Source: a phage. From it: a stretch of 64,000 nucleotides of DNA. Shown here piece after piece: positions 3,087 to 38,981 of the stretch. Location: the sequence record PZ445498.1. One strand, given 5' to 3'. Both the position numbers and the translations under genes were made by a program. A model generated the notes under the pieces. That model was not told where the DNA came from and searched no databases. It saw only the letters and a list, made by a program, of their open reading frames with translations. Every line of letters starts with the position of its first letter. The stretch's first letter is position 1.

Positions 3087-3565
3087 TTGATTATGATGGT
3101 CTAAAGGCCATTTTTGGTGAAAAGCTGCCAGAATCTCATATCTTCTTTGCTACGGTTGCAGCACACAAGTTCGTTCCAAACTACGCTACTCTACGTAAAG
3201 AGTTTGGAATGACCACTGCACATACCAACCGCAAGGTTTGGAACAAGTTCAAAGAAGCATACGAAATTACTGCTCCGGTTGTTCCGGCACTAGCTTTCAC
3301 AAAGAATCTGGCTAAAACTCTAGCTGTTGATACTGGTGCAGCAATTAATCTGGGTGTAACAGTTACTGGTGGTACTGCACCATATACTTATGCTTGGACT
3401 AAAGACGGTTCTCCACTAAGTGGTGTTACTGGCCCTAATTTCAACAAAGCTACAGCTGCTGCAGAAGATGCTGGTACTTACAAAGTTGTTGTAACGGATA
3501 GTAAATCTACTTCCATTACTTCTAATGAGTGTGTAACAACTATCAACCCTGCGCCGGAGGCTTAA
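3083..3565 (+). CDS. capsid decoration protein with C-terminal Ig-like domain (pb10-like)
   Basis: 160 aa; C-terminal segment GVTVTGGTAPYTYAWTKDGSPLSGVTGPNF...AGTYKVVVTD has Ig-like signature; located between portal and protease. Confidence 0.65.
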   Translation: MIDYDGLKAIFGEKLPESHIFFATVAAHKFVPNYATLRKEFGMTTAHTNRKVWNKFKEAYEITAPVVPALAFTKNLAKTLAVDTGAAINLGVTVTGGTAPYTYAWTKDGSPLSGVTGPNFNKATAAAEDAGTYKVVVTDSKSTSITSNECVTTINPAPEA

Positions 3566-3568
3566 TAA

Positions 3569-4201
3569 ATGACAAATGCTGCTATTGACTATAACAAGTT
3601 AAAATCAGCACCGGTTCATTTAGACGCTTACATTAAGTCTATTGATAGCGAATCCAAAGAGGGTGTTATAAAAATCCGTGGATTCGCTAATACAATTAGT
3701 AAAGATCGCGCTGGTGACGTAATTCCTGCTTCGGCATGGAAAACGTCTAATGCACTTGCTAACTACATGAAAAACCCGATTATTCTTTTCGGCCACGACC
3801 ATCGTCGTCCAATCGGCAAGTGTATTGATCTTAACCCTACTGAAATGGGTCTCGAAATTGAATGCGAGATTTATGAAAGTTCTGATCCAGCTATCTTCTC
3901 ACTAATTAAAAACGGTGTACTGAAAACCTTCAGTATCGGATTCCGCTGCCTAGACGCAGAATGGGATGAAGCTACTGACATATTTATTATTAAAGATTTA
4001 GAACTATACGAAGTTTCGGTAGTCTCTGTACCTTGTAATCAGGACTCAACGTTCAACCTCGCTAAGAGTATGAATGGTCACGATTACACTGAATGGCGCA
4101 AATCTTTTACTGCAACAAGTTCTAAGGCTGTCCCAGCTCAAGAACGTAATCTTTCTGAACTAGAAAAACTTGCGATAGCTTTAGGCTACGTTAAAGAATA
4201 A
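3569..4201 (+). CDS. prohead protease (HK97-family, pb11-like)
   Basis: 210 aa; motif ILFGHDHRRPIGK resembles the HK97-type prohead protease catalytic region; directly upstream of major capsid gene. Confidence 0.7.
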   Translation: MTNAAIDYNKLKSAPVHLDAYIKSIDSESKEGVIKIRGFANTISKDRAGDVIPASAWKTSNALANYMKNPIILFGHDHRRPIGKCIDLNPTEMGLEIECEIYESSDPAIFSLIKNGVLKTFSIGFRCLDAEWDEATDIFIIKDLELYEVSVVSVPCNQDSTFNLAKSMNGHDYTEWRKSFTATSSKAVPAQERNLSELEKLAIALGYVKE

Positions 4202-33573: not shown

Positions 33574-33603
33574 ATTATACCAAATCTTTGAGCGATTCGG
33601 CAA
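33574..33603 (-). promoter_or_regulatory. candidate promoter for DNA polymerase gene
   Basis: Reverse complement TTGCCG-N18-TATAAT; followed by a 9-bp inverted repeat TTGGTAAGT / ACTTACCAA in the leader. Confidence 0.4.
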
Positions 33604-34465
33604 CTAAAATTTCAATACGTTGAGCCAACATATCGATCTCTTCTTTATTTAAGTCACCTGGGTCTTTGCCTTCTGGAAGAAGGAAGTTACCAACTACAGG
33701 TGTTAAACGCGTTTTTGTACGAATTAGCTTCGCTAGTGCTTGTGCGGCTTTATTACCAGAGGCATCATTATCTAATAGGATAACTACTACTCTTACTCCA
33801 GCAATAATGTAAGGACTGAACTTATCGGCAATGTTATCAGATGTAAACTGATGTGTACCAAAGCAGCAAGAAGCATAATCCACACCGTTATCTTCTAGAT
33901 TTAACATATCAAAGATACCTTCAACTAGAACAAGAACTGGTGTATTATATCGTACAGGAAAAATCGGTGGTGAAACTTGTTTTGGTTTTACTAAGTATTT
34001 AGGAGGGGCAGAACTGTTTATAGAACGTCCCAGGAATAGGATATTGCGTCCAACAGCATCTGTTATTGGGAATACAATTCTGCCTTCCCAGTCTGCTTGA
34101 TGTTGGAAAGCAAAATATTTCTTCAAGGTCTTAGAACTGATACCTCGGAAATCACCTTCGAAAAGGTAAGCAGATTCAGGAATTGCAAGATTCGTAGATC
34201 CATTCCTAATCTCTGAAATCTTTTTACGTACTTGTGACAATCTTGGGGACTGTCTGTACTGAGTCTCATTAAAATAATGGTAAATGCTCGGTATTCCTCT
34301 ACCGAAGCCACAGCTCAAGCAATGCATAATACCTGATTCAGGATCAATACGCAAGCTTGGGTGTTTATCATCATGATCTGGATTGAGACAACAGATGAGG
34401 ATGTCCCCACCTGTGTCTTTGTATTCAATGCCTTTCAGATCAAGTAGTTCTGTTATTCTACTCAT
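33575..34465 (-). CDS. DNA primase (zinc-binding + TOPRIM)
   Basis: 296 aa; N-terminal zinc-finger C-x(n)-H...C-x2-C (CCLNPDHDDKHPSLRIDPESGIMHCLSC) and TOPRIM-like acidic motifs. Confidence 0.8.
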   Translation of the reverse strand: MSRITELLDLKGIEYKDTGGDILICCLNPDHDDKHPSLRIDPESGIMHCLSCGFGRGIPSIYHYFNETQYRQSPRLSQVRKKISEIRNGSTNLAIPESAYLFEGDFRGISSKTLKKYFAFQHQADWEGRIVFPITDAVGRNILFLGRSINSSAPPKYLVKPKQVSPPIFPVRYNTPVLVLVEGIFDMLNLEDNGVDYASCCFGTHQFTSDNIADKFSPYIIAGVRVVVILLDNDASGNKAAQALAKLIRTKTRLTPVVGNFLLPEGKDPGDLNKEEIDMLAQRIEILVAESLKDLV

Positions 34466-35934
34466 ATATCGCTGGCCTGTTCACCTGTTGAATTTTCAGC
34501 TTTGTCTTTCTTAGCACGTTTAGGTTGAGCTGGTTTATCCTTTTCAATAGGAATAACGAACTCAGCTTCCATTTGCGCAATATCTTCCATTGCTAGGTTG
34601 GTAGTGTTATCCATTCGCAGAGTTTCCCAGTTCATCTTAGGCATAAACTTCACACTATCAGAGGAACGAGTCTTAACGAAGTCAAACATAATAGCACCTT
34701 GACCATTATCAGCTTTTGCAGCATTAAGATTAGCAGCCATATCTGCGGAATCAAGAATCCCTTTAGACATACGCGTTCTACCATCTTGGTCAATCTGATA
34801 AGGAGCAACACCAGCCACGTTATGTTTCTGGCAGATAGATTTGAAAGACGAACTAACAACCATCTGTTCTTTCCAGTCATACATGTCAATGGTCTTTGAA
34901 TCTGGAAGTCTTGTTTGGTTAATATAGTCTAGAAGAGCTACAGTAACCTTATCACCATACTTAGCAACTAGTTTATTTAATTCTACGTCAACCGTCGTAA
35001 TAGACAGTTCAGGATCGTAAACGATGATCATAGGAGTGTGAAGCTCATAGCCTTCAAGGAGTTTACTTTCCATATCATAGAAGTCACTCATTTTAGCCAT
35101 AGTGTATTGCTTAACGAAGTTATCGAAAAGCTCTTCACCACCATTAAACATCCTAGCCCTAGTTCTGGCTAATCTCAACAGAGCAGCACCTTCAAGAGTG
35201 TTGTTACGCATTGCTAATGCAGATACTCCAGCTAACATAGCCAGATTACGTCTAAACACTTCGTGCTCTTTCATCTCAATTGAGAAATATGGAGCAATGT
35301 CTCCATTCAAATATTGCTGAACCTGTATGTTTGAGCAGATAATGGATTTACCAGTACCACGCCAACCACCAAGCAGTAACGTTTCTGTGCGAGCTAAACC
35401 AATTTGAGCGTCGAACTCATTACAAATACCAAGAGCGATCAAGTTCAGTTTGGTATCTTCTTCTCTCTGGAAAATACGCATTGTGTCTGCGTTGAATACC
35501 TTTCCAGTATTCGTTACTTTCTCTTCTAATTTTAAGTGAAGGGAGGCAACTCGGTTGAGAATTTCTCCCTGATCCAGCATTGTTAAATCTTGAAGCACGT
35601 CTGTTTCTAGAAGTTTCAGGAATAGATCCTGTGTATATTCGGCTTCTAGGACTTCAAGCGCCTGTTCCATGCTCACTTCTGGAATTTGAGTGTTAGCTAA
35701 GACGACAAGAGCTTGAGAAAGGCGGGCGTTCCTATTGGCCTCAAGCATCAGTGCGTCAATGGACGGCATTGCGTTATATTTCTTATAATAATTCTGGACG
35801 GCTTGGTAAATTGAGGAGAAAGCGTCATTAAAATGATCTTTATGCAGTTTTGAGAATGTTTCCAATGCTATTTGCTTCTGTTCAGAAGCGAGAAGCATCT
35901 TCAACACTACAGCTTGCACGTTAAACAAGGTCAT
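34462..35934 (-). CDS. replicative DNA helicase (DnaB-like)
   Basis: Walker A GGWRGTGKS in C-terminal RecA-like domain; start uncertain (35934 preferred; upstream in-frame ATG at 35985 lies inside a terminator hairpin). Confidence 0.7.
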   Translation of the reverse strand: MTLFNVQAVVLKMLLASEQKQIALETFSKLHKDHFNDAFSSIYQAVQNYYKKYNAMPSIDALMLEANRNARLSQALVVLANTQIPEVSMEQALEVLEAEYTQDLFLKLLETDVLQDLTMLDQGEILNRVASLHLKLEEKVTNTGKVFNADTMRIFQREEDTKLNLIALGICNEFDAQIGLARTETLLLGGWRGTGKSIICSNIQVQQYLNGDIAPYFSIEMKEHEVFRRNLAMLAGVSALAMRNNTLEGAALLRLARTRARMFNGGEELFDNFVKQYTMAKMSDFYDMESKLLEGYELHTPMIIVYDPELSITTVDVELNKLVAKYGDKVTVALLDYINQTRLPDSKTIDMYDWKEQMVVSSSFKSICQKHNVAGVAPYQIDQDGRTRMSKGILDSADMAANLNAAKADNGQGAIMFDFVKTRSSDSVKFMPKMNWETLRMDNTTNLAMEDIAQMEAEFVIPIEKDKPAQPKRAKKDKAENSTGEQASDI

Positions 35935-35957
35935 TCTCCTTTGCACGCTTTCGTGCC

Positions 35958-35990
35958 TTCTAAATGCAAAAAGGGGAAGGAGCATAGCCC
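35958..35990 (-). terminator. intrinsic terminator after D5-like gene
   Basis: On the minus strand AAGGGGAGGG...CCTTCCCCTT hairpin followed by TTTTT. Confidence 0.55.
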
Positions 35991-36016
35991 CCTCCCCTTA
36001 GGTTTAATTTACCAGA

Positions 36017-36784
36017 TTATTCAGCAGCCGCAGCTTTTGCATCCAGTTTAGCACGCTTAGCGGCACCATCATAGTCCTTAGCAACCAGACCACGACGAGA
36101 CAGCATAGATTTAACACCGCGCTCAGACTTACCAGTTTTCTCAGCGATCTCAGCAACAGTCATGTTAGCCAGATCCAGACCTTCTAACAGATCTTCACGA
36201 GTTTTAGCACTTGAAGTTTCCTGTACCGGCATAGCAGCGATACGACCTTCACGAAGCAGGCTCAGAGCTTTACCACGGATCTGCTTAATATTGCGACCGA
36301 AGTGAGCAGCGATAGCTTCAATAGTAGCACCAGCAACAACCTGATTAACGAAATCAGTTTCTTCGTCAGGAGTGAAGGAACGAACAGCAGCAGCTTTTTC
36401 AGTTGGCTTAACAGAAGCGGTCATTTCCAGACTCAGGATCTTACCCTGTACCTGCTTAGCACCGAACTGACCACCAGCTACAGCAGCAGCGATTTCAGCG
36501 TAAGTATACTGACCAGCATGAGCGTTCAGGAAATCAACCAGTTCAGCTTCTTGTTCAGGAGTCCACGGGGATTTCTGTACTTCGTTAGCTTTCTGTACTT
36601 CGAAACCTTCTTTACGCAGCTTAGAGCCAACAGAGCGAGCGGTAACGTCTTTACCAGTCTCGGTAGCCAGTTCAGCAGCGATAGCAGCTACTTGTTCTTG
36701 AGAGATTACAGCAACACCCAGAGCAGTGGCTTTTGCTTTCAGAGACTCGGTTACACCTTCTACGTTCCAGTTCAGTTTAGACAT
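36017..36784 (-). CDS. abundant early DNA-binding protein (D5-like)
   Basis: 255 aa; strongly optimal codon usage; repeated helix-turn-helix-like modules (TVAEIAEKTGKSERGVKSMLSRRGL). Confidence 0.5.
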   Translation of the reverse strand: MSKLNWNVEGVTESLKAKATALGVAVISQEQVAAIAAELATETGKDVTARSVGSKLRKEGFEVQKANEVQKSPWTPEQEAELVDFLNAHAGQYTYAEIAAAVAGGQFGAKQVQGKILSLEMTASVKPTEKAAAVRSFTPDEETDFVNQVVAGATIEAIAAHFGRNIKQIRGKALSLLREGRIAAMPVQETSSAKTREDLLEGLDLANMTVAEIAEKTGKSERGVKSMLSRRGLVAKDYDGAAKRAKLDAKAAAAE

Positions 36785-37559
36785 TATTATTTTTCTCCAA
36801 TAGTTCTTTAATCGACAGGATTTCTATCCCATTCGTTTCGGCTTTCTTATAAGATGAGGAAGAACGTTTTGATTCATCCTCACAGATTAGGTATTTGACG
36901 TCTTTGGTAACGGACTTCTTAACCGTATATCCTAGACTTTCTAAATAGTTTGTTGCATCCGTTCGATTTGCAAAATCTTGCAAAGATCCGGTAATACAGA
37001 CCGTGATTCCATTTGGCTGGGCAACTAAATCATCAGTAATGATGATATCAGCTTTAGCACCTCGAATACCAGTTGAGAATTTCCACGGTAATTCAATAAC
37101 ATCCTTGCCTTGTGGGGAATTTAGCCAGGTTTTGTAATTTTCTCCAGCCTTGCCGTCAGCCTTCACATCGTGGAAGCTAGTGCAATTTTGGGACAGTTTC
37201 TTTGCTGCAACCTCTCCAATAAGAGGAATTCCTAAAGAACCGAGAACTGAACCAAAGTCAATGTCTCCGCGAACCTTAGTATTTAACTCGCTAATCAACT
37301 TAGTGGCAACCTTGCTACCCACAGCTCCGACCAAATCTTCTTCGGTCAGGTAAAACAGTTCTGAGATCTTAGTCAGTTCCAGCTTCTCAATAGTTTTTGG
37401 GCCAAAGCCCTTTAACTTCATTTTTGTGCAGAAGTTCTCGATTAACTTACTTGATTGCGCTGGACAGTTGGACTTATTCCTACAGAATAATTGCCCGTTG
37501 ACAAGATCTAGCTTAGAACCACAAGAGGGACATTGTGTTGGAATTTCGATTTTCATCAA
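36777..37559 (-). CDS. NAD-dependent DNA ligase, C-terminal subunit (Zn-finger, HhH, BRCT)
   Basis: 260 aa; starts with Cys4 zinc finger CPSCGSKLDLVNGQLFCRNKSNCPAQ; C-terminal BRCT-like region. Confidence 0.8.
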   Translation of the reverse strand: MMKIEIPTQCPSCGSKLDLVNGQLFCRNKSNCPAQSSKLIENFCTKMKLKGFGPKTIEKLELTKISELFYLTEEDLVGAVGSKVATKLISELNTKVRGDIDFGSVLGSLGIPLIGEVAAKKLSQNCTSFHDVKADGKAGENYKTWLNSPQGKDVIELPWKFSTGIRGAKADIIITDDLVAQPNGITVCITGSLQDFANRTDATNYLESLGYTVKKSVTKDVKYLICEDESKRSSSSYKKAETNGIEILSIKELLEKNNNV

Positions 37560-37586
37560 ATTTCTTCCTTATCAATTTATATAAAT

Positions 37587-37615
37587 ATTATAGCAAGTAT
37601 TTAAGCATTTAGCAA
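37587..37615 (-). promoter_or_regulatory. early promoter inside the ligase inter-subunit spacer
   Basis: Reverse complement TTGCTA-N17-TATAAT followed by ATTTATATAAATTGATAAGGAAG leader. Confidence 0.6.
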
Positions 37616-37679
37616 CTACAATTTTAACTAACTTTGCTTACCCTCGCCATAACTTTCTATCCCTCAACTGAATGATAAT

Positions 37680-37708
37680 AGTATATACCTAAGCGGCGAA
37701 AATGTCAA
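37680..37708 (-). promoter_or_regulatory. second candidate promoter in ligase spacer
   Basis: Reverse complement TTGACA-N17-TATACT. Confidence 0.45.
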
Positions 37709-37758
37709 TAACCACTTTATAATTCCGACATGGTAAACGGGTAGCAAAGGGTTACGAA

Positions 37759-38733
37759 TTAGTCGTATACTCGCTCTACTATACAAGGGATTACACCACC
37801 AGCACGAATCACTCGAATCTGGCAACCGATCTCTAAATCGAGAGCGTTAATATAATCAACGTTATTAAGAGTTGCTTTAACGATTGTGGCATCATCAATA
37901 ATCACCGGCTCGAAATAACCAACTGGAGTTACTTTACCAGAAGCCCCTACTTGCCATTCAACTTTAACAAGTGTGGTAATTTCGCCTTCTTCATCCTCTT
38001 TAATAGCAAATGCACCACGAGGAAATTTATTAGTCCAACCTTCACGGAAGAATTTATTGTTGTCGTTAATACGAACAACTTTACCGTCCGTCGGAATCCA
38101 TTTAAAAAAGGAACGAACATTAACAACTGTCAAGAAGTTCTCATTCTCTAGCCAAAGCATATCTTTTAAATAGGCTTCTGTAATACCGACTGTTTCCGCT
38201 GAACACTGTATACCATATGCAACGAAGATTAAACCACCTTCACCAATACGTTGCATGAAATCATCGCTGTCTTTCAGGTTAATAGCACCCGAAGCGTAGT
38301 TACGTTTGTTCTCTACTTCTTTAGTAATGAGAACTTCACCAGTGATTTGAGTTGGTACTTTTTGGGAAATAGTTTTGGGGATGTTCAGCATTTTAACATT
38401 ATGCGTTACATCATTCCCTAGAATACCGTTACCACGAGTTAACGCTTGAACAAACTCACCATTAATATATAATAGAGAAATCGCACAACCATCTAACTTA
38501 TCAGTTTCAACCTGACCAAGTGGGTTGAATGGAGCTTTATCACCACGATCGTAATAGACTTTCTGCAAAGAATACATACGATACAAATGAGGGATATCAC
38601 CTTTCGGTCCGATTTCTTCCTCTAGTGGGAATCTTTTAATCAGACGATCATATTCTTCATCGGAAATAAGACTCATTCCCTGGTAGTACGCTTCTTGACA
38701 ACGTTTAATAAAGTCTTTTACATTATTCATCAT
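37759..38733 (-). CDS. NAD-dependent DNA ligase, N-terminal subunit (adenylation + OB domains)
   Basis: 324 aa; adenylation motif KLDGCAISL (KxDG) and OB-fold region. Confidence 0.8.
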   Translation of the reverse strand: MMNNVKDFIKRCQEAYYQGMSLISDEEYDRLIKRFPLEEEIGPKGDIPHLYRMYSLQKVYYDRGDKAPFNPLGQVETDKLDGCAISLLYINGEFVQALTRGNGILGNDVTHNVKMLNIPKTISQKVPTQITGEVLITKEVENKRNYASGAINLKDSDDFMQRIGEGGLIFVAYGIQCSAETVGITEAYLKDMLWLENENFLTVVNVRSFFKWIPTDGKVVRINDNNKFFREGWTNKFPRGAFAIKEDEEGEITTLVKVEWQVGASGKVTPVGYFEPVIIDDATIVKATLNNVDYINALDLEIGCQIRVIRAGGVIPCIVERVYD

Positions 38734-38941
38734 CTGCGATTTCCATTTTGAGTTCTTTACTATACTGCGCAGCCATACCAGCTAAATCAGCAGCTTCTTT
38801 CAACCACGCATCTTTGTACGCTTTCTGGTTTGGAGTGCCGATACTATCCTGGTAATTGATTCTTGCTATGGAGAGCAAATTAAGTTTTGCTTGAATCTTT
38901 GGAAGTGTTATTATCATTGCCATAATTGATCCTCTCATCAA
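38723..38941 (-). CDS. hypothetical protein
   Basis: 72-aa ORF directly downstream of an early promoter. Confidence 0.35.
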   Translation of the reverse strand: MMRGSIMAMIITLPKIQAKLNLLSIARINYQDSIGTPNQKAYKDAWLKEAADLAGMAAQYSKELKMEIADDE

Positions 38942-38952
38942 TTTATATAAAT

Positions 38953-38981
38953 ATTATATATGAAAACTGAGTCGAAAGCAA
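38953..38981 (-). promoter_or_regulatory. early sigma70-type promoter (minus strand)
   Basis: Reverse complement TTGCTT-N17-TATAAT followed by ATTTATATAAATTGATGAGAG. Confidence 0.65.

What the first reader, a model, noticed from the sequence alone, without database searches (positions are those of the whole stretch)
36777..38733. NAD-dependent DNA ligase split into two genes with promoters in the spacer
The adenylation and OB domains (37759-38733, KLDGC motif) and the Zn-finger/HhH/BRCT portion (36777-37559, beginning exactly at the Cys4 finger) are separate ORFs. The 199-bp spacer between them contains two promoter-like elements (37587-37615 and 37680-37708). The break falls at a domain boundary, so the ligase may assemble from two polypeptides. 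The spacer could be the scar of a mobile-element insertion.
Basis: partly seen in the sequence, partly recalled or inferred. Interest (0 to 1): 0.45.

Follow-up and report, generated by a model that had tools for sequence, protein, structure and literature searches.

The report
T5-type two-subunit NAD-dependent DNA ligase
This is the long-annotated two-gene (subunit A / subunit B) NAD-dependent DNA ligase of T5-like phages, separated by two named T5 early promoters; a related phage's version has been solved as a heterodimer on nicked DNA, so the finding is real but ordinary.

Summary
On the minus strand, 37759-38733 encodes the adenylation and OB domains (324 aa, KLDG lysine K79). 36777-37556/37559 encodes the Zn-finger, HhH and BRCT domains (259/260 aa). 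The 199-202 bp spacer holds two sigma70-type promoters at the stated coordinates.

It is already known. The window is a T5-like phage (Epseptimavirus, 99% identical to mar003J3). The T5 record AY543070 annotates ligA "subunit A", ligB "subunit B" and two promoters, "P-K 28b" and "P-K 28a", in this spacer. The window's spacer is identical to T5's from the first -35 hexamer to the ligB ATG. [quoted passage not shown] PDB 9hu3 (released 2026-01-14) is the [quoted passage not shown]; its chains match both halves (E 1e-106 and 6e-80).

What I added:
- All 87 related loci are split at the same boundary, down to about 40% identity. Outgroup phage ligases are fused.
- A promoter in the gap is ancestral.
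- The gap is a cargo insertion hotspot, including one GIY-YIG endonuclease.
- The promoters probably drive a ligB-D5 transcript.

The "mobile-element scar" idea remains unproven.

The parts
38953..38981 (-). T5 early-type promoter upstream of the small ORF and ligA (TTGCTT-17-TATAAT, followed by the box atttatataaattga). It is a near twin of the promoter at 37615-37587.
   Evidence: T5 annotates an unnamed promoter at the orthologous place (L006 2421-2495). A terminator-like hairpin lies just upstream at 39026-38998.
38723..38941 (-). Small ORF (72 aa as listed; 66 aa as annotated in relatives) whose end overlaps the ligA start. Function unknown.
   Evidence: Annotated 'hypothetical protein' in mar003J3.
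37759..38733 (-). [quoted passage not shown] It ends ...IVERVYD.
   Evidence: Pfam PF01653 1.3e-23 and PF03120 9.4e-22. PHROG 3359 2.9e-176. 96% identical to T5 ligA. PDB 9hu3_A E 1.2e-106.
37557..37758 (-). Intergenic spacer: 202 bp to the ATG, 199 bp to the TTG. It has stop codons in all frames, no Rfam match and no significant RNA structure.
   Evidence: Conservation analysis.
37680..37708 (-). Promoter orthologous to T5 'P-K 28b' (TTGACA-17-TATACT).
   Evidence: T5 annotation at L006 3503-3577. Identical to T5 and conserved in Klebsiella phage Shiner.
37624..37650 (-). Mini-ORF MARVSKVS* with a GAGGGA Shine-Dalgarno-like box, lying in the leader transcribed from the first promoter. Probably not a conserved peptide.
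   Evidence: Sequence, frame 0 translation. The peptide is not preserved in Klebsiella phage Shiner (alignment A1).
37587..37615 (-). Promoter orthologous to T5 'P-K 28a' (TTGCTA-17-TATAAT, TG-extended -10, ATATT discriminator, downstream ATAAATTGA box). The ligB ribosome-binding site AAGGAAG follows at 37570-37564.
   Evidence: T5 annotation at L006 3596-3670. ATATT is described as the early-promoter signature in PMC7472727.
36777..37556 (-). ligB, NAD-dependent DNA ligase subunit B (259 aa from the ATG): Cys4 zinc finger (C9, C12, C25, C31), HhH domain, BRCT domain.
   Evidence: Pfam BRCT 1.1e-8. PHROG 3498 5.3e-137. Invariant cysteines. PDB 9hu3_B E 6.4e-80. Alignment-based AlphaFold model with pLDDT 82.6 matches 9hu3_B (7.6e-26) and the C-terminal part of 2owo_A (4.4e-7).
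36017..36784 (-). D5 DNA-binding protein gene. Its ATG overlaps the ligB stop (ATGTCTAA), so it is probably co-transcribed and translationally coupled with ligB.
35971..35999 (-). Terminator-like hairpin (13-bp stem, 8 G-C pairs, T run) just after D5. Likely the end of the ligB-D5 transcription unit.
   Evidence: Terminators are annotated at the same place in PR1 and Shiner.

Best explanation
[quoted passage not shown] Subunit B (zinc finger, HhH, BRCT) should supply the DNA-clamping and nick-binding surface that the catalytic half lacks. The two separate polypeptides should come together on nicked DNA to seal it. The likely substrates are Okazaki-fragment junctions during phage replication and the strand-specific nicks typical of T5-type genomes.

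The spacer between the genes is not junk or a scar. It is a pair of tandem host-RNA-polymerase early promoters (T5 P-K 28b and P-K 28a) plus the ligB ribosome-binding site. These promoters start a transcript that covers ligB and the translationally coupled D5 DNA-binding protein gene and ends at the hairpin after D5. ligA is served by its own upstream promoter at 38981-38953.

Shown here: domain content, orthology, conservation, and the position of the promoters.
Shown elsewhere: heterodimer formation on nicked DNA for the PR1 orthologue, and the promoter naming in T5.
Inferred: activity of this phage's own proteins, the ligB-D5 operon, and any excess of subunit B over subunit A.
For: - Domains and tiling of full-length LigA profiles.
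- The split ligase of T5 is cited as a discovery in PMC1684257 and listed as ligA/ligB in PMC3632103.
- PDB 9hu3 / 9i5i hold both chains. Chain A is 100% Providencia phage PR1. The entry title is 'PR1 phage heterodimeric DNA ligase in complex with 21-mer nicked DNA containing phage nick sequence'.
- Both ORFs vary mainly at third codon positions (53% and 32% of columns, against 5-12% at positions 1 and 2), which indicates purifying selection on both proteins.
- The split is kept in 87 of 87 loci, down to 38-45% identity.
- The promoters are identical to those annotated in T5, are as conserved as second codon positions, and belong to a class enriched 16-fold in the window.
- A promoter sits in the gap in 20 of 25 independent distant relatives, against 1.0 expected.
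- ligB and D5 overlap, and a terminator-like hairpin follows D5.
- A truncated LigN consisting of domain Ia, adenylation and OB domains adenylates itself but cannot ligate, which shows that the C-terminal domains are needed.
Against: - No experiment on this phage's own proteins or promoters was available.
- I could not read the paper behind 9hu3, nor Gentz & Bujard 1985. The heterodimer evidence therefore rests on the PDB entry title and chain content, and the promoter evidence rests on the GenBank feature names.
- Domain Ia, which confers NAD+ specificity, is matched only weakly (4.8 bits).
- The HhH Pfam hit is below its cut-off (21.7 against 27 bits).
- No terminator was found between ligA and the promoters in this window. 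Read-through from the ligA promoter therefore also reaches ligB, and the two genes are not fully uncoupled.
Confidence: 0.93

Rival explanations
1. Historical-origin hypothesis. A once-continuous ligA was cut in two when a free-standing homing endonuclease or other mobile cassette landed in the OB-to-zinc-finger linker. The cassette was later lost, leaving the split and an intergenic region that was taken over by promoters. This concerns origin and is compatible with the best explanation.
For: - The ligA|ligB gap is a recurrent insertion site in relatives. L032 carries a GIY-YIG endonuclease gene (Pfam 26.1 bits against a 22.6 cut-off) inserted right after ligA, and the adjacent end of ligA there is more diverged than usual (A 92% identity where B is 97%).
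- Other relatives hold DprA-like genes, a radical-SAM gene and a dioxygenase-like gene at the same site.
- Outgroup phage ligases are fused.
- From my own knowledge, there is precedent for 'genes in pieces' created by endonuclease insertion in T4-like phages: nrdA split by mobE in phage Aeh1, and split DNA polymerase gp43.
Against: - The window's spacer holds no ORF or recognisable remnant of a mobile element.
- The only endonuclease seen (1 of 87 loci) sits in an already split gene and upstream of intact promoters, so it is a later arrival.
- The split predates all sampled diversity, so no intermediate is available.
- A promoter in the gap is ancestral. That fits equally well with selection for an internal promoter as the cause of the split.
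Confidence: 0.3
2. The two halves do not work as one enzyme. Subunit B, made from its own strong promoters, acts mainly as an independent nick-binding or BRCT scaffold protein, and subunit A acts alone or with a host partner.
For: - ligB has two dedicated strong promoters and is coupled to the D5 gene rather than to ligA.
- In Vibrio phages, 450-1360 bp and one to three genes separate A from B.
Against: - PDB 9hu3 shows the PR1 orthologues of both halves in one 'heterodimeric DNA ligase' complex on nicked DNA.
- A and B are always adjacent or near-adjacent and co-occur in 87 of 87 loci.
- An adenylation-plus-OB fragment alone cannot ligate.
Confidence: 0.05
3. Artefact or decay. The split is a sequencing or assembly error or a recent pseudogenisation, or the halves are rejoined by an intron, an intein or a programmed frameshift.
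For: None beyond the bare fact of two ORFs.
Against: - The spacer has 5-7 stop codons in every frame, and the two genes are in different frames.
- The identical architecture occurs in 431 phage records and 87 of 87 loci.
- Both ORFs are under purifying selection.
- There is no Rfam intron match and no RNA structure.
- The halves tile LigA with no surplus residues that could be an intein.
- The stand-alone subunit B length of 247-263 aa holds in all full-length proteins among the best 120 database hits; the only two shorter ones (190 and 214 aa) are shorter, not fused.
Confidence: 0.01

Closest known systems
Bacteriophage T5 LigA / LigB (T5.116 and T5.117 in AY543070; AAU05253 and AAU05254), with promoters P-K 28b and P-K 28a between them
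   Same: Orthologous. Subunits A and B are each 96% identical. The break point is the same, the spacer is the same 202 bp and is identical from the first -35 hexamer to the ligB ATG, and the neighbours are the same (D3 ... ligA, ligB, D5, D6 helicase).
   Different: Only strain-level substitutions. The window belongs to the Epseptimavirus branch (99% identical to mar003J3, oselot and EscoHU1) rather than to Tequintavirus.
Providencia phage vB_PreS_PR1 heterodimeric DNA ligase (PDB 9hu3, 9i5i)
   Same: The same two-chain architecture, split at the same boundary. Identities are 55% (A) and 54% (B). The spacer is 192 bp and carries an annotated promoter. D5-like and helicase genes lie downstream.
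   Different: PR1 is annotated with a terminator directly after ligA and with one promoter, whereas this window has two promoters and no detectable terminator. The structure and DNA complex exist for PR1 only.
Single-chain bacterial LigA (E. coli LigA, PDB 2owo; Thermus filiformis 1dgs / 1v9p)
   Same: The same domain order and motifs: KxDG, OB fold, Cys4 finger, HhH, BRCT. The subunit B model superposes on the C-terminal part of 2owo_A. I expect the same chemistry (NAD+ to lysyl-AMP to DNA-adenylate to sealed nick), based on established knowledge of the family.
   Different: Two polypeptides instead of one. The adenylation domain is about 40 residues shorter (276 residues cover 316 profile positions). 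Neither half reaches the NCBIfam LigA equivalog cut-off on its own (174.6 and 106.9 against 444 bits).
'Genes in pieces' of T4-like phages created by homing-endonuclease insertion (for example Aeh1 nrdA split by mobE) - from my own knowledge, not tested here
   Same: An essential DNA-metabolism enzyme is divided at a domain boundary into two adjacent genes whose products reassemble. A GIY-YIG endonuclease occupies the gap in one relative (L032).
   Different: In this window and in 86 of 87 relatives no endonuclease lies between the halves. The split is fixed across a whole family, and the gap has a regulatory role (promoters).

Membership tests
NAD+-dependent DNA ligase (LigA) | Nucleotidyltransferase (adenylation) domain with the motif I lysine, KxDG | tested here: met
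   PF01653 1.3e-23. KLDG at residues 79-82 of subunit A. Aligned with the KxDG region of solved LigA adenylation domains.
NAD+-dependent DNA ligase (LigA) | LigA-type OB-fold domain following the adenylation domain | tested here: met
   PF03120 9.4e-22, residues 253-322. 68.9-bit alignment to 1v9p residues 284-389.
NAD+-dependent DNA ligase (LigA) | N-terminal domain Ia, which binds the NMN moiety and confers NAD+ specificity | tested here: inconclusive
   Only a weak collinear match of residues 2-43 to 1v9p residues 10-52 (4.8 bits). The YY...SDEEYDRL pattern is visible by eye. The PR1 orthologue was deposited as 'DNA ligase (NAD(+))'.
NAD+-dependent DNA ligase (LigA) | Cys4 zinc finger, HhH domain and BRCT domain C-terminal to the OB fold | tested here: met
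   - C9, C12, C25 and C31 are invariant in 30 sequences.
- BRCT PF00533 1.1e-8.
- HhH is below the Pfam cut-off (21.7 against 27 bits) but is covered by TIGR00575 positions 388-651 and by the Foldseek match to 2owo_A.
NAD+-dependent DNA ligase (LigA) | All domains on one polypeptide of about 650-700 aa (what the equivalog models expect) | tested here: not met
   Two ORFs of 324 and 259 aa. TIGR00575 scores of 174.6 and 106.9 bits are both below the 444.45 cut-off. This is the known T5-type variant.
NAD+-dependent DNA ligase (LigA) | NAD+-dependent nick sealing | not testable with these tools
   Needs purified proteins.
T5-type heterodimeric LigA (subunit A + subunit B) | Break in the OB-to-zinc-finger linker: A ends after the OB fold and B starts a few residues before the first cysteine | tested here: met
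   A ends ...IVERVYD and B starts MKIEIPTQCPSCG. The halves tile PHROG 3869 at 9-381 and 388-654.
T5-type heterodimeric LigA (subunit A + subunit B) | Orthology to T5 ligA/ligB and to the two chains of the solved PR1 enzyme | tested here: met
   96% identity to T5 for each subunit. PHROG 3359 2.9e-176 and PHROG 3498 5.3e-137. 9hu3_A 1.2e-106 and 9hu3_B 6.4e-80.
T5-type heterodimeric LigA (subunit A + subunit B) | Conserved neighbourhood: ligA - gap - ligB - D5 - replicative helicase | tested here: met
   for the window and close relatives. Among 41 distant loci, all 41 have D5 downstream and 40 have the helicase.
T5-type heterodimeric LigA (subunit A + subunit B) | Physical A-B complex on nicked DNA | not testable with these tools
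   Shown for the PR1 orthologue by the title and chain content of PDB 9hu3. Not shown for this phage.
T5 early promoters P-K 28b / P-K 28a | Sigma70-type -35 and -10 hexamers with 17-bp spacing at the position orthologous to the T5 features | tested here: met
   (identical sequence to T5).
T5 early promoters P-K 28b / P-K 28a | Early-class signature: ATATT in the discriminator region (PMC7472727), A/T-rich upstream element, downstream AAATTGA box | tested here: met
   The site at 37615-37587 reads TATAATATTT and has the ATAAATTGA box, which is shared with about 12 other sites in the window. The site at 37708-37680 has CTATT and AGTTGAGG, so it is only a partial match.
T5 early promoters P-K 28b / P-K 28a | Transcription initiation by E. 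coli RNA polymerase | not testable with these tools
   Rests on the GenBank feature names. The primary paper (Gentz & Bujard 1985) is not held in the library.
Gene split by a resident homing endonuclease ('genes in pieces') | An endonuclease gene lying between the two halves | tested here: not met
   There is no plausible coding ORF in the window's spacer. The only ORF of 30 aa or more there is the 53-aa TTG ORF at 37664-37825, which overlaps the ligA 3' end and runs across the first promoter. An endonuclease is present in only 1 of 87 relatives (L032, GIY-YIG).
Intron- or intein-interrupted gene | A structured self-splicing RNA, or surplus intein residues at the junction | tested here: not met
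   No Rfam match at E <= 1. Fold z-score -1.06. The halves tile LigA with no surplus residues.

The most novel reading that the evidence does not exclude
The split is adaptive rather than a neutral scar. It may have been kept for the whole history of the T5-like clade because it creates an intergenic slot for a strong early promoter. That promoter uncouples the nick-binding subunit B, together with the D5 DNA-binding protein, from the catalytic subunit A. Subunit B would then be made in excess and could also act on its own, for example by marking or protecting the sequence-specific nicks of T5-type genomes or by recruiting replication proteins through its BRCT domain. The same slot doubles as a landing pad for accessory genes and homing endonucleases.
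Probability: 0.2. Interest if true: 0.4.

Novelty: already known. Interest (0 to 1): 0.12.

Why it matters
It matters little as a discovery. The split ligase of T5 has been in GenBank and the literature since 2004-2005, its spacer promoters carry names in the T5 record, and a heterodimeric orthologue bound to nicked DNA is in the PDB (released 2026).

The system is a clean natural example of a multi-domain enzyme working as two chains, and it is relevant to how T5-type phages handle their nicked genomes. The comparative points found here could help explain why the split persists:
- The split is universal and at one fixed boundary across the clade.
- A promoter in the gap is ancestral.
- ligB is coupled to D5.
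- The gap is a cargo and endonuclease hotspot.

These are incremental points, and the paper behind the structure, which I could not read, may already cover them.

Tried and rejected
- Single-sequence AlphaFold model of subunit B: pLDDT 34, discarded. It was replaced by an alignment-based model.
- Rfam at E <= 1 on the spacer and its flanks: nothing. RNA folding of the spacer: not different from shuffles, z = -1.06. So there is no riboswitch, small RNA or intron.
- Terminator between ligA and the promoters: none found by the simple scan, although PR1 has one annotated.
- Homing endonuclease in the Vibrio-phage gaps: rejected. Those ORFs are DprA-like (PHROG 768) or unknown, with no significant Pfam hits.
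- Literature searches for a paper on 9HU3, on 'split / heterodimeric / two-subunit DNA ligase', and on the PR1 ligase found only the 2006 LigN paper.
- Gentz & Bujard 1985 could not be opened by PubMed id or by PMC id.
- The mini-ORF MARVSKVS in the leader was considered as a possible leader peptide and set aside, because the peptide is not preserved in Klebsiella phage Shiner.
- Sequencing error, frameshift or read-through was considered and rejected.
Full report
**1. What is in the sequence**

Two minus-strand ORFs lie at exactly the coordinates given: 37759..38733 (324 aa) and 36777..37559 (260 aa from a TTG). Public records start the second gene one codon later, at the ATG at 37556.

Pfam finds the NAD-dependent ligase adenylation domain (1.3e-23) and the LigA OB fold (9.4e-22) in the first ORF. 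It finds a BRCT domain (1.1e-8) and a sub-threshold HhH match in the second.

- The catalytic KLDG motif is at residues 79-82 of the first protein.
- The second protein begins MKIEIPTQCPSCG, with cysteines at 9, 12, 25 and 31.
- These four cysteines are invariant in 30 homologues down to 51% identity.

Together the halves tile full-length LigA profiles with only 6-9 positions missing at the junction. They cover PHROG 3869 positions 9-381 and 388-654 of 656, and TIGR00575 positions 63-378 and 388-651 of 652.

The spacer (199 bp to the TTG, 202 bp to the ATG) has 5-7 stop codons in each frame, and the two genes are in different frames. No single sequencing error could fuse them.

**2. The promoters**

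- 37708-37680: TTGACA-17-TATACT, 11/12.
- 37615-37587: TTGCTA-17-TATAAT with an upstream TG, 10/12.

The overall number of promoter-like hits in this region is no higher than in shuffles (8 against 7.3), so the scan alone is not evidence. The evidence comes from comparison.

- The T5 GenBank record AY543070 annotates two promoters in the same spacer, named 'P-K 28b' and 'P-K 28a'.
- The window is identical to T5 from the first -35 hexamer to the ligB ATG. Klebsiella phage Shiner, whose subunit A is only 72% identical, keeps both promoters and the boxes just downstream of them almost unchanged.
- Across 28 distinct T5-like sequences, only 6% of columns vary between the first -35 hexamer and the ligB ATG. 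That equals second codon positions (5%) and is far below third positions (53% in ligA, 32% in ligB).
- The second promoter belongs to a class (A/T-rich upstream element, TTGCTw, 17 nt, TATAAT, downstream ATAAATTGA box) found 16 times in the window against 1.0 expected.
- It carries the ATATT discriminator that Klimuk et al. describe as the signature of all known T5 early promoters (PMC7472727).

From memory, the P-K 28 names go back to the Bujard laboratory's work on very strong T5 promoters (Gentz & Bujard 1985). I could not open that paper.

**3. It is already known**

The 2.35-kb region matches 455 phage records, 431 of them over at least 80% of its length. The closest are Epseptimavirus genomes at 99% identity. 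[quoted passage not shown]

- T5 itself carries ligA (T5.116) and ligB (T5.117).
- Wong et al. 2013 list them as ligA AAU05253 and ligB AAU05254 (PMC3632103).
[quoted passage not shown] 2005. They report that a LigN fragment made of domain Ia, adenylation and OB domains adenylates itself but cannot ligate. Their attempt to reconstitute activity from two polypeptides failed because the C-terminal part could not be stably expressed (PMC1684257).

**4. Assembly from two chains is experimentally supported**

A sequence search of the PDB finds entries 9hu3 and 9i5i. They contain a 339-aa chain 'DNA ligase (NAD(+))' (E 1.2e-106 to subunit A) and a 248-aa chain 'DNA ligase subunit B' (E 6.4e-80 to subunit B). 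The chain A sequence is 100% identical to Providencia phage vB_PreS_PR1, a T5-like phage of the Demerecviridae.

An alignment-based AlphaFold model of the window's subunit B (pLDDT 82.6) matches 9hu3_B best (E 7.6e-26). That entry is titled 'PR1 phage heterodimeric DNA ligase in complex with 21-mer nicked DNA containing phage nick sequence' and was released on 2026-01-14. The next informative match is the C-terminal part of E. coli LigA bound to nicked DNA-adenylate (2owo, 4.4e-7).

I found no paper for this structure in the library.

**5. How old and how general the split is**

I examined 87 loci: 7 annotated phage records and 80 viral contigs retrieved with a subunit B alignment. All 87 are split and none is fused, down to 41% (A) and 38% (B) identity.

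In a search of 5.8 billion proteins, the best 120 relatives of subunit B (100% down to about 50% identity) are stand-alone proteins of 247-263 aa, apart from two shorter ones of 190 and 214 aa, at least one of them partial. None is fused.

Outside the group, phage LigAs are ordinary fused proteins: 647 aa in MT835528 and 680 aa in PhiPA3.

Caveat: the contig scan used peptide patterns from the subunit B N-terminus and kept the best 80 of 411 confirmed matches. Very divergent or fused relatives could therefore be under-sampled.

**6. What the gap contains in relatives**

Gap length falls into classes:

| Group | Gap length |
|---|---|
| Markadamsvirinae and Sugarlandvirus | 199-202 bp |
| PR1 | 192 bp |
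| Distant metagenomic relatives | 56-118 bp |
| Vibrio phages | 437-1359 bp |

In the distant relatives, 20 of 25 roughly independent gap sequences carry a sigma70-type match of at least 10/12, several of them a perfect TTGACA-17-TATAAT. Dinucleotide shuffles give 1.0 +/- 1.0 (maximum 4). All 41 such loci have D5 downstream of ligB, and 40 also have the helicase. A promoter between the halves is therefore ancestral to the clade. The tandem pair is a feature of the enterobacterial branch.

The enlarged gaps hold unrelated cargo:

- DprA-like proteins (PHROG 768) and small ORFs in Vibrio phages.
- A radical-SAM protein in L041 and a cysteine-dioxygenase-like protein in L055.
- In one close T5 relative (L032), a GIY-YIG endonuclease gene (Pfam 26.1 bits against a 22.6 cut-off). 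It is inserted directly after ligA and upstream of the intact promoter pair, and the adjacent 3' end of ligA is unusually diverged.

The site is thus an insertion hotspot. The only endonuclease seen is a late arrival in an already split gene, and the window's spacer has no remnant of one.

**7. Likely transcription unit**

- The ligB stop overlaps the D5 start (ATGTCTAA).
- A 13-bp, G+C-rich terminator-like hairpin with a T run follows D5 at 35999-35971. Terminators are annotated at the same place in PR1 and Shiner.
- A near twin of the second promoter lies at 38981-38953, upstream of a small ORF and ligA.
- No terminator was detected between ligA and the spacer promoters.

I infer that ligA is transcribed from its own promoter, with read-through into ligB. 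The two spacer promoters add strong extra transcription of ligB and D5. This is inference, and no transcript data were available.

**8. Verdict**

The feature is the already known T5-type heterodimeric NAD+-dependent DNA ligase with the T5 early promoters P-K 28b and P-K 28a in its spacer. Interest is low.

The only open points are why the split has been kept across the whole clade and whether subunit B, with its own promoters and its coupling to D5, has a role beyond completing the ligase.

Noticed in passing
L032 3184-3840 (IMGVR_UViG_2974606035_000001): A GIY-YIG homing-endonuclease-like gene (213-218 aa) is inserted between the ligA stop and the intact promoter pair in one close T5 relative. 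The adjacent 3' end of ligA is more diverged than usual (A 92% identity where B is 97%), as expected for co-conversion around a homing site.
   Followed up: partly
L003 3713-4285; L004 3804-4364; L035-L037 about 3281-3845: Vibrio T5-like phages carry a DprA-like gene (PHROG 768, E down to 5e-49) plus one or two small unknown ORFs between ligA and ligB. Its function next to the ligase is unknown.
   Followed up: partly
L041 564-1568; L055 1336-1749: Other cargo sits in the same gap in metagenomic relatives: a 334-aa radical-SAM protein (Pfam 2.7e-11) and a 137-aa protein matching a phage 'cysteine dioxygenase' family (PHROG 4786, 1.6e-22).
   Followed up: no
window 37624-37650 (-): An eight-codon mini-ORF (MARVSKVS*), preceded by a GAGGGA Shine-Dalgarno-like box, lies in the leader between the two promoters. 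The DNA is conserved, but the peptide is not kept in Klebsiella phage Shiner.
   Followed up: partly
window 38953-38981 (-) and 38723-38941 (-): A near-identical twin of the second spacer promoter, including the downstream atttatataaattga box, precedes a small unknown ORF whose end overlaps the ligA start. A terminator-like hairpin at 39026-38998 lies just upstream.
   Followed up: partly
window 35971-35999 (-): A strong terminator-like hairpin (13-bp stem, 8 G-C pairs) directly after D5 overlaps the first codons of the helicase ORF as listed (start at 35985). The true helicase start may therefore be further downstream.
   Followed up: no
window 33575-35985 compared with L001 5966-8016: The closest relative, mar003J3, has an H-N-H endonuclease gene (P-TflX-like) between the helicase and primase genes. 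In the window the two genes abut directly (34462-34465 overlap), so this endonuclease is absent here.
   Followed up: no
window, 16 sites (for example 48077, 53846, 59101, 60948, 62274, 63115, 63798): A family of T5 early-type promoters (AAAATTT upstream element, TTGCTw-17-TATAAT, downstream AAATTGA box) occurs 16 times in the window against 1.0 expected by chance.
   Followed up: partly
L003 3453-3674 (Vibrio phage phi 3): [quoted passage not shown] It has no ligase domain in Pfam, so this is probably a propagated misannotation.
   Followed up: partly
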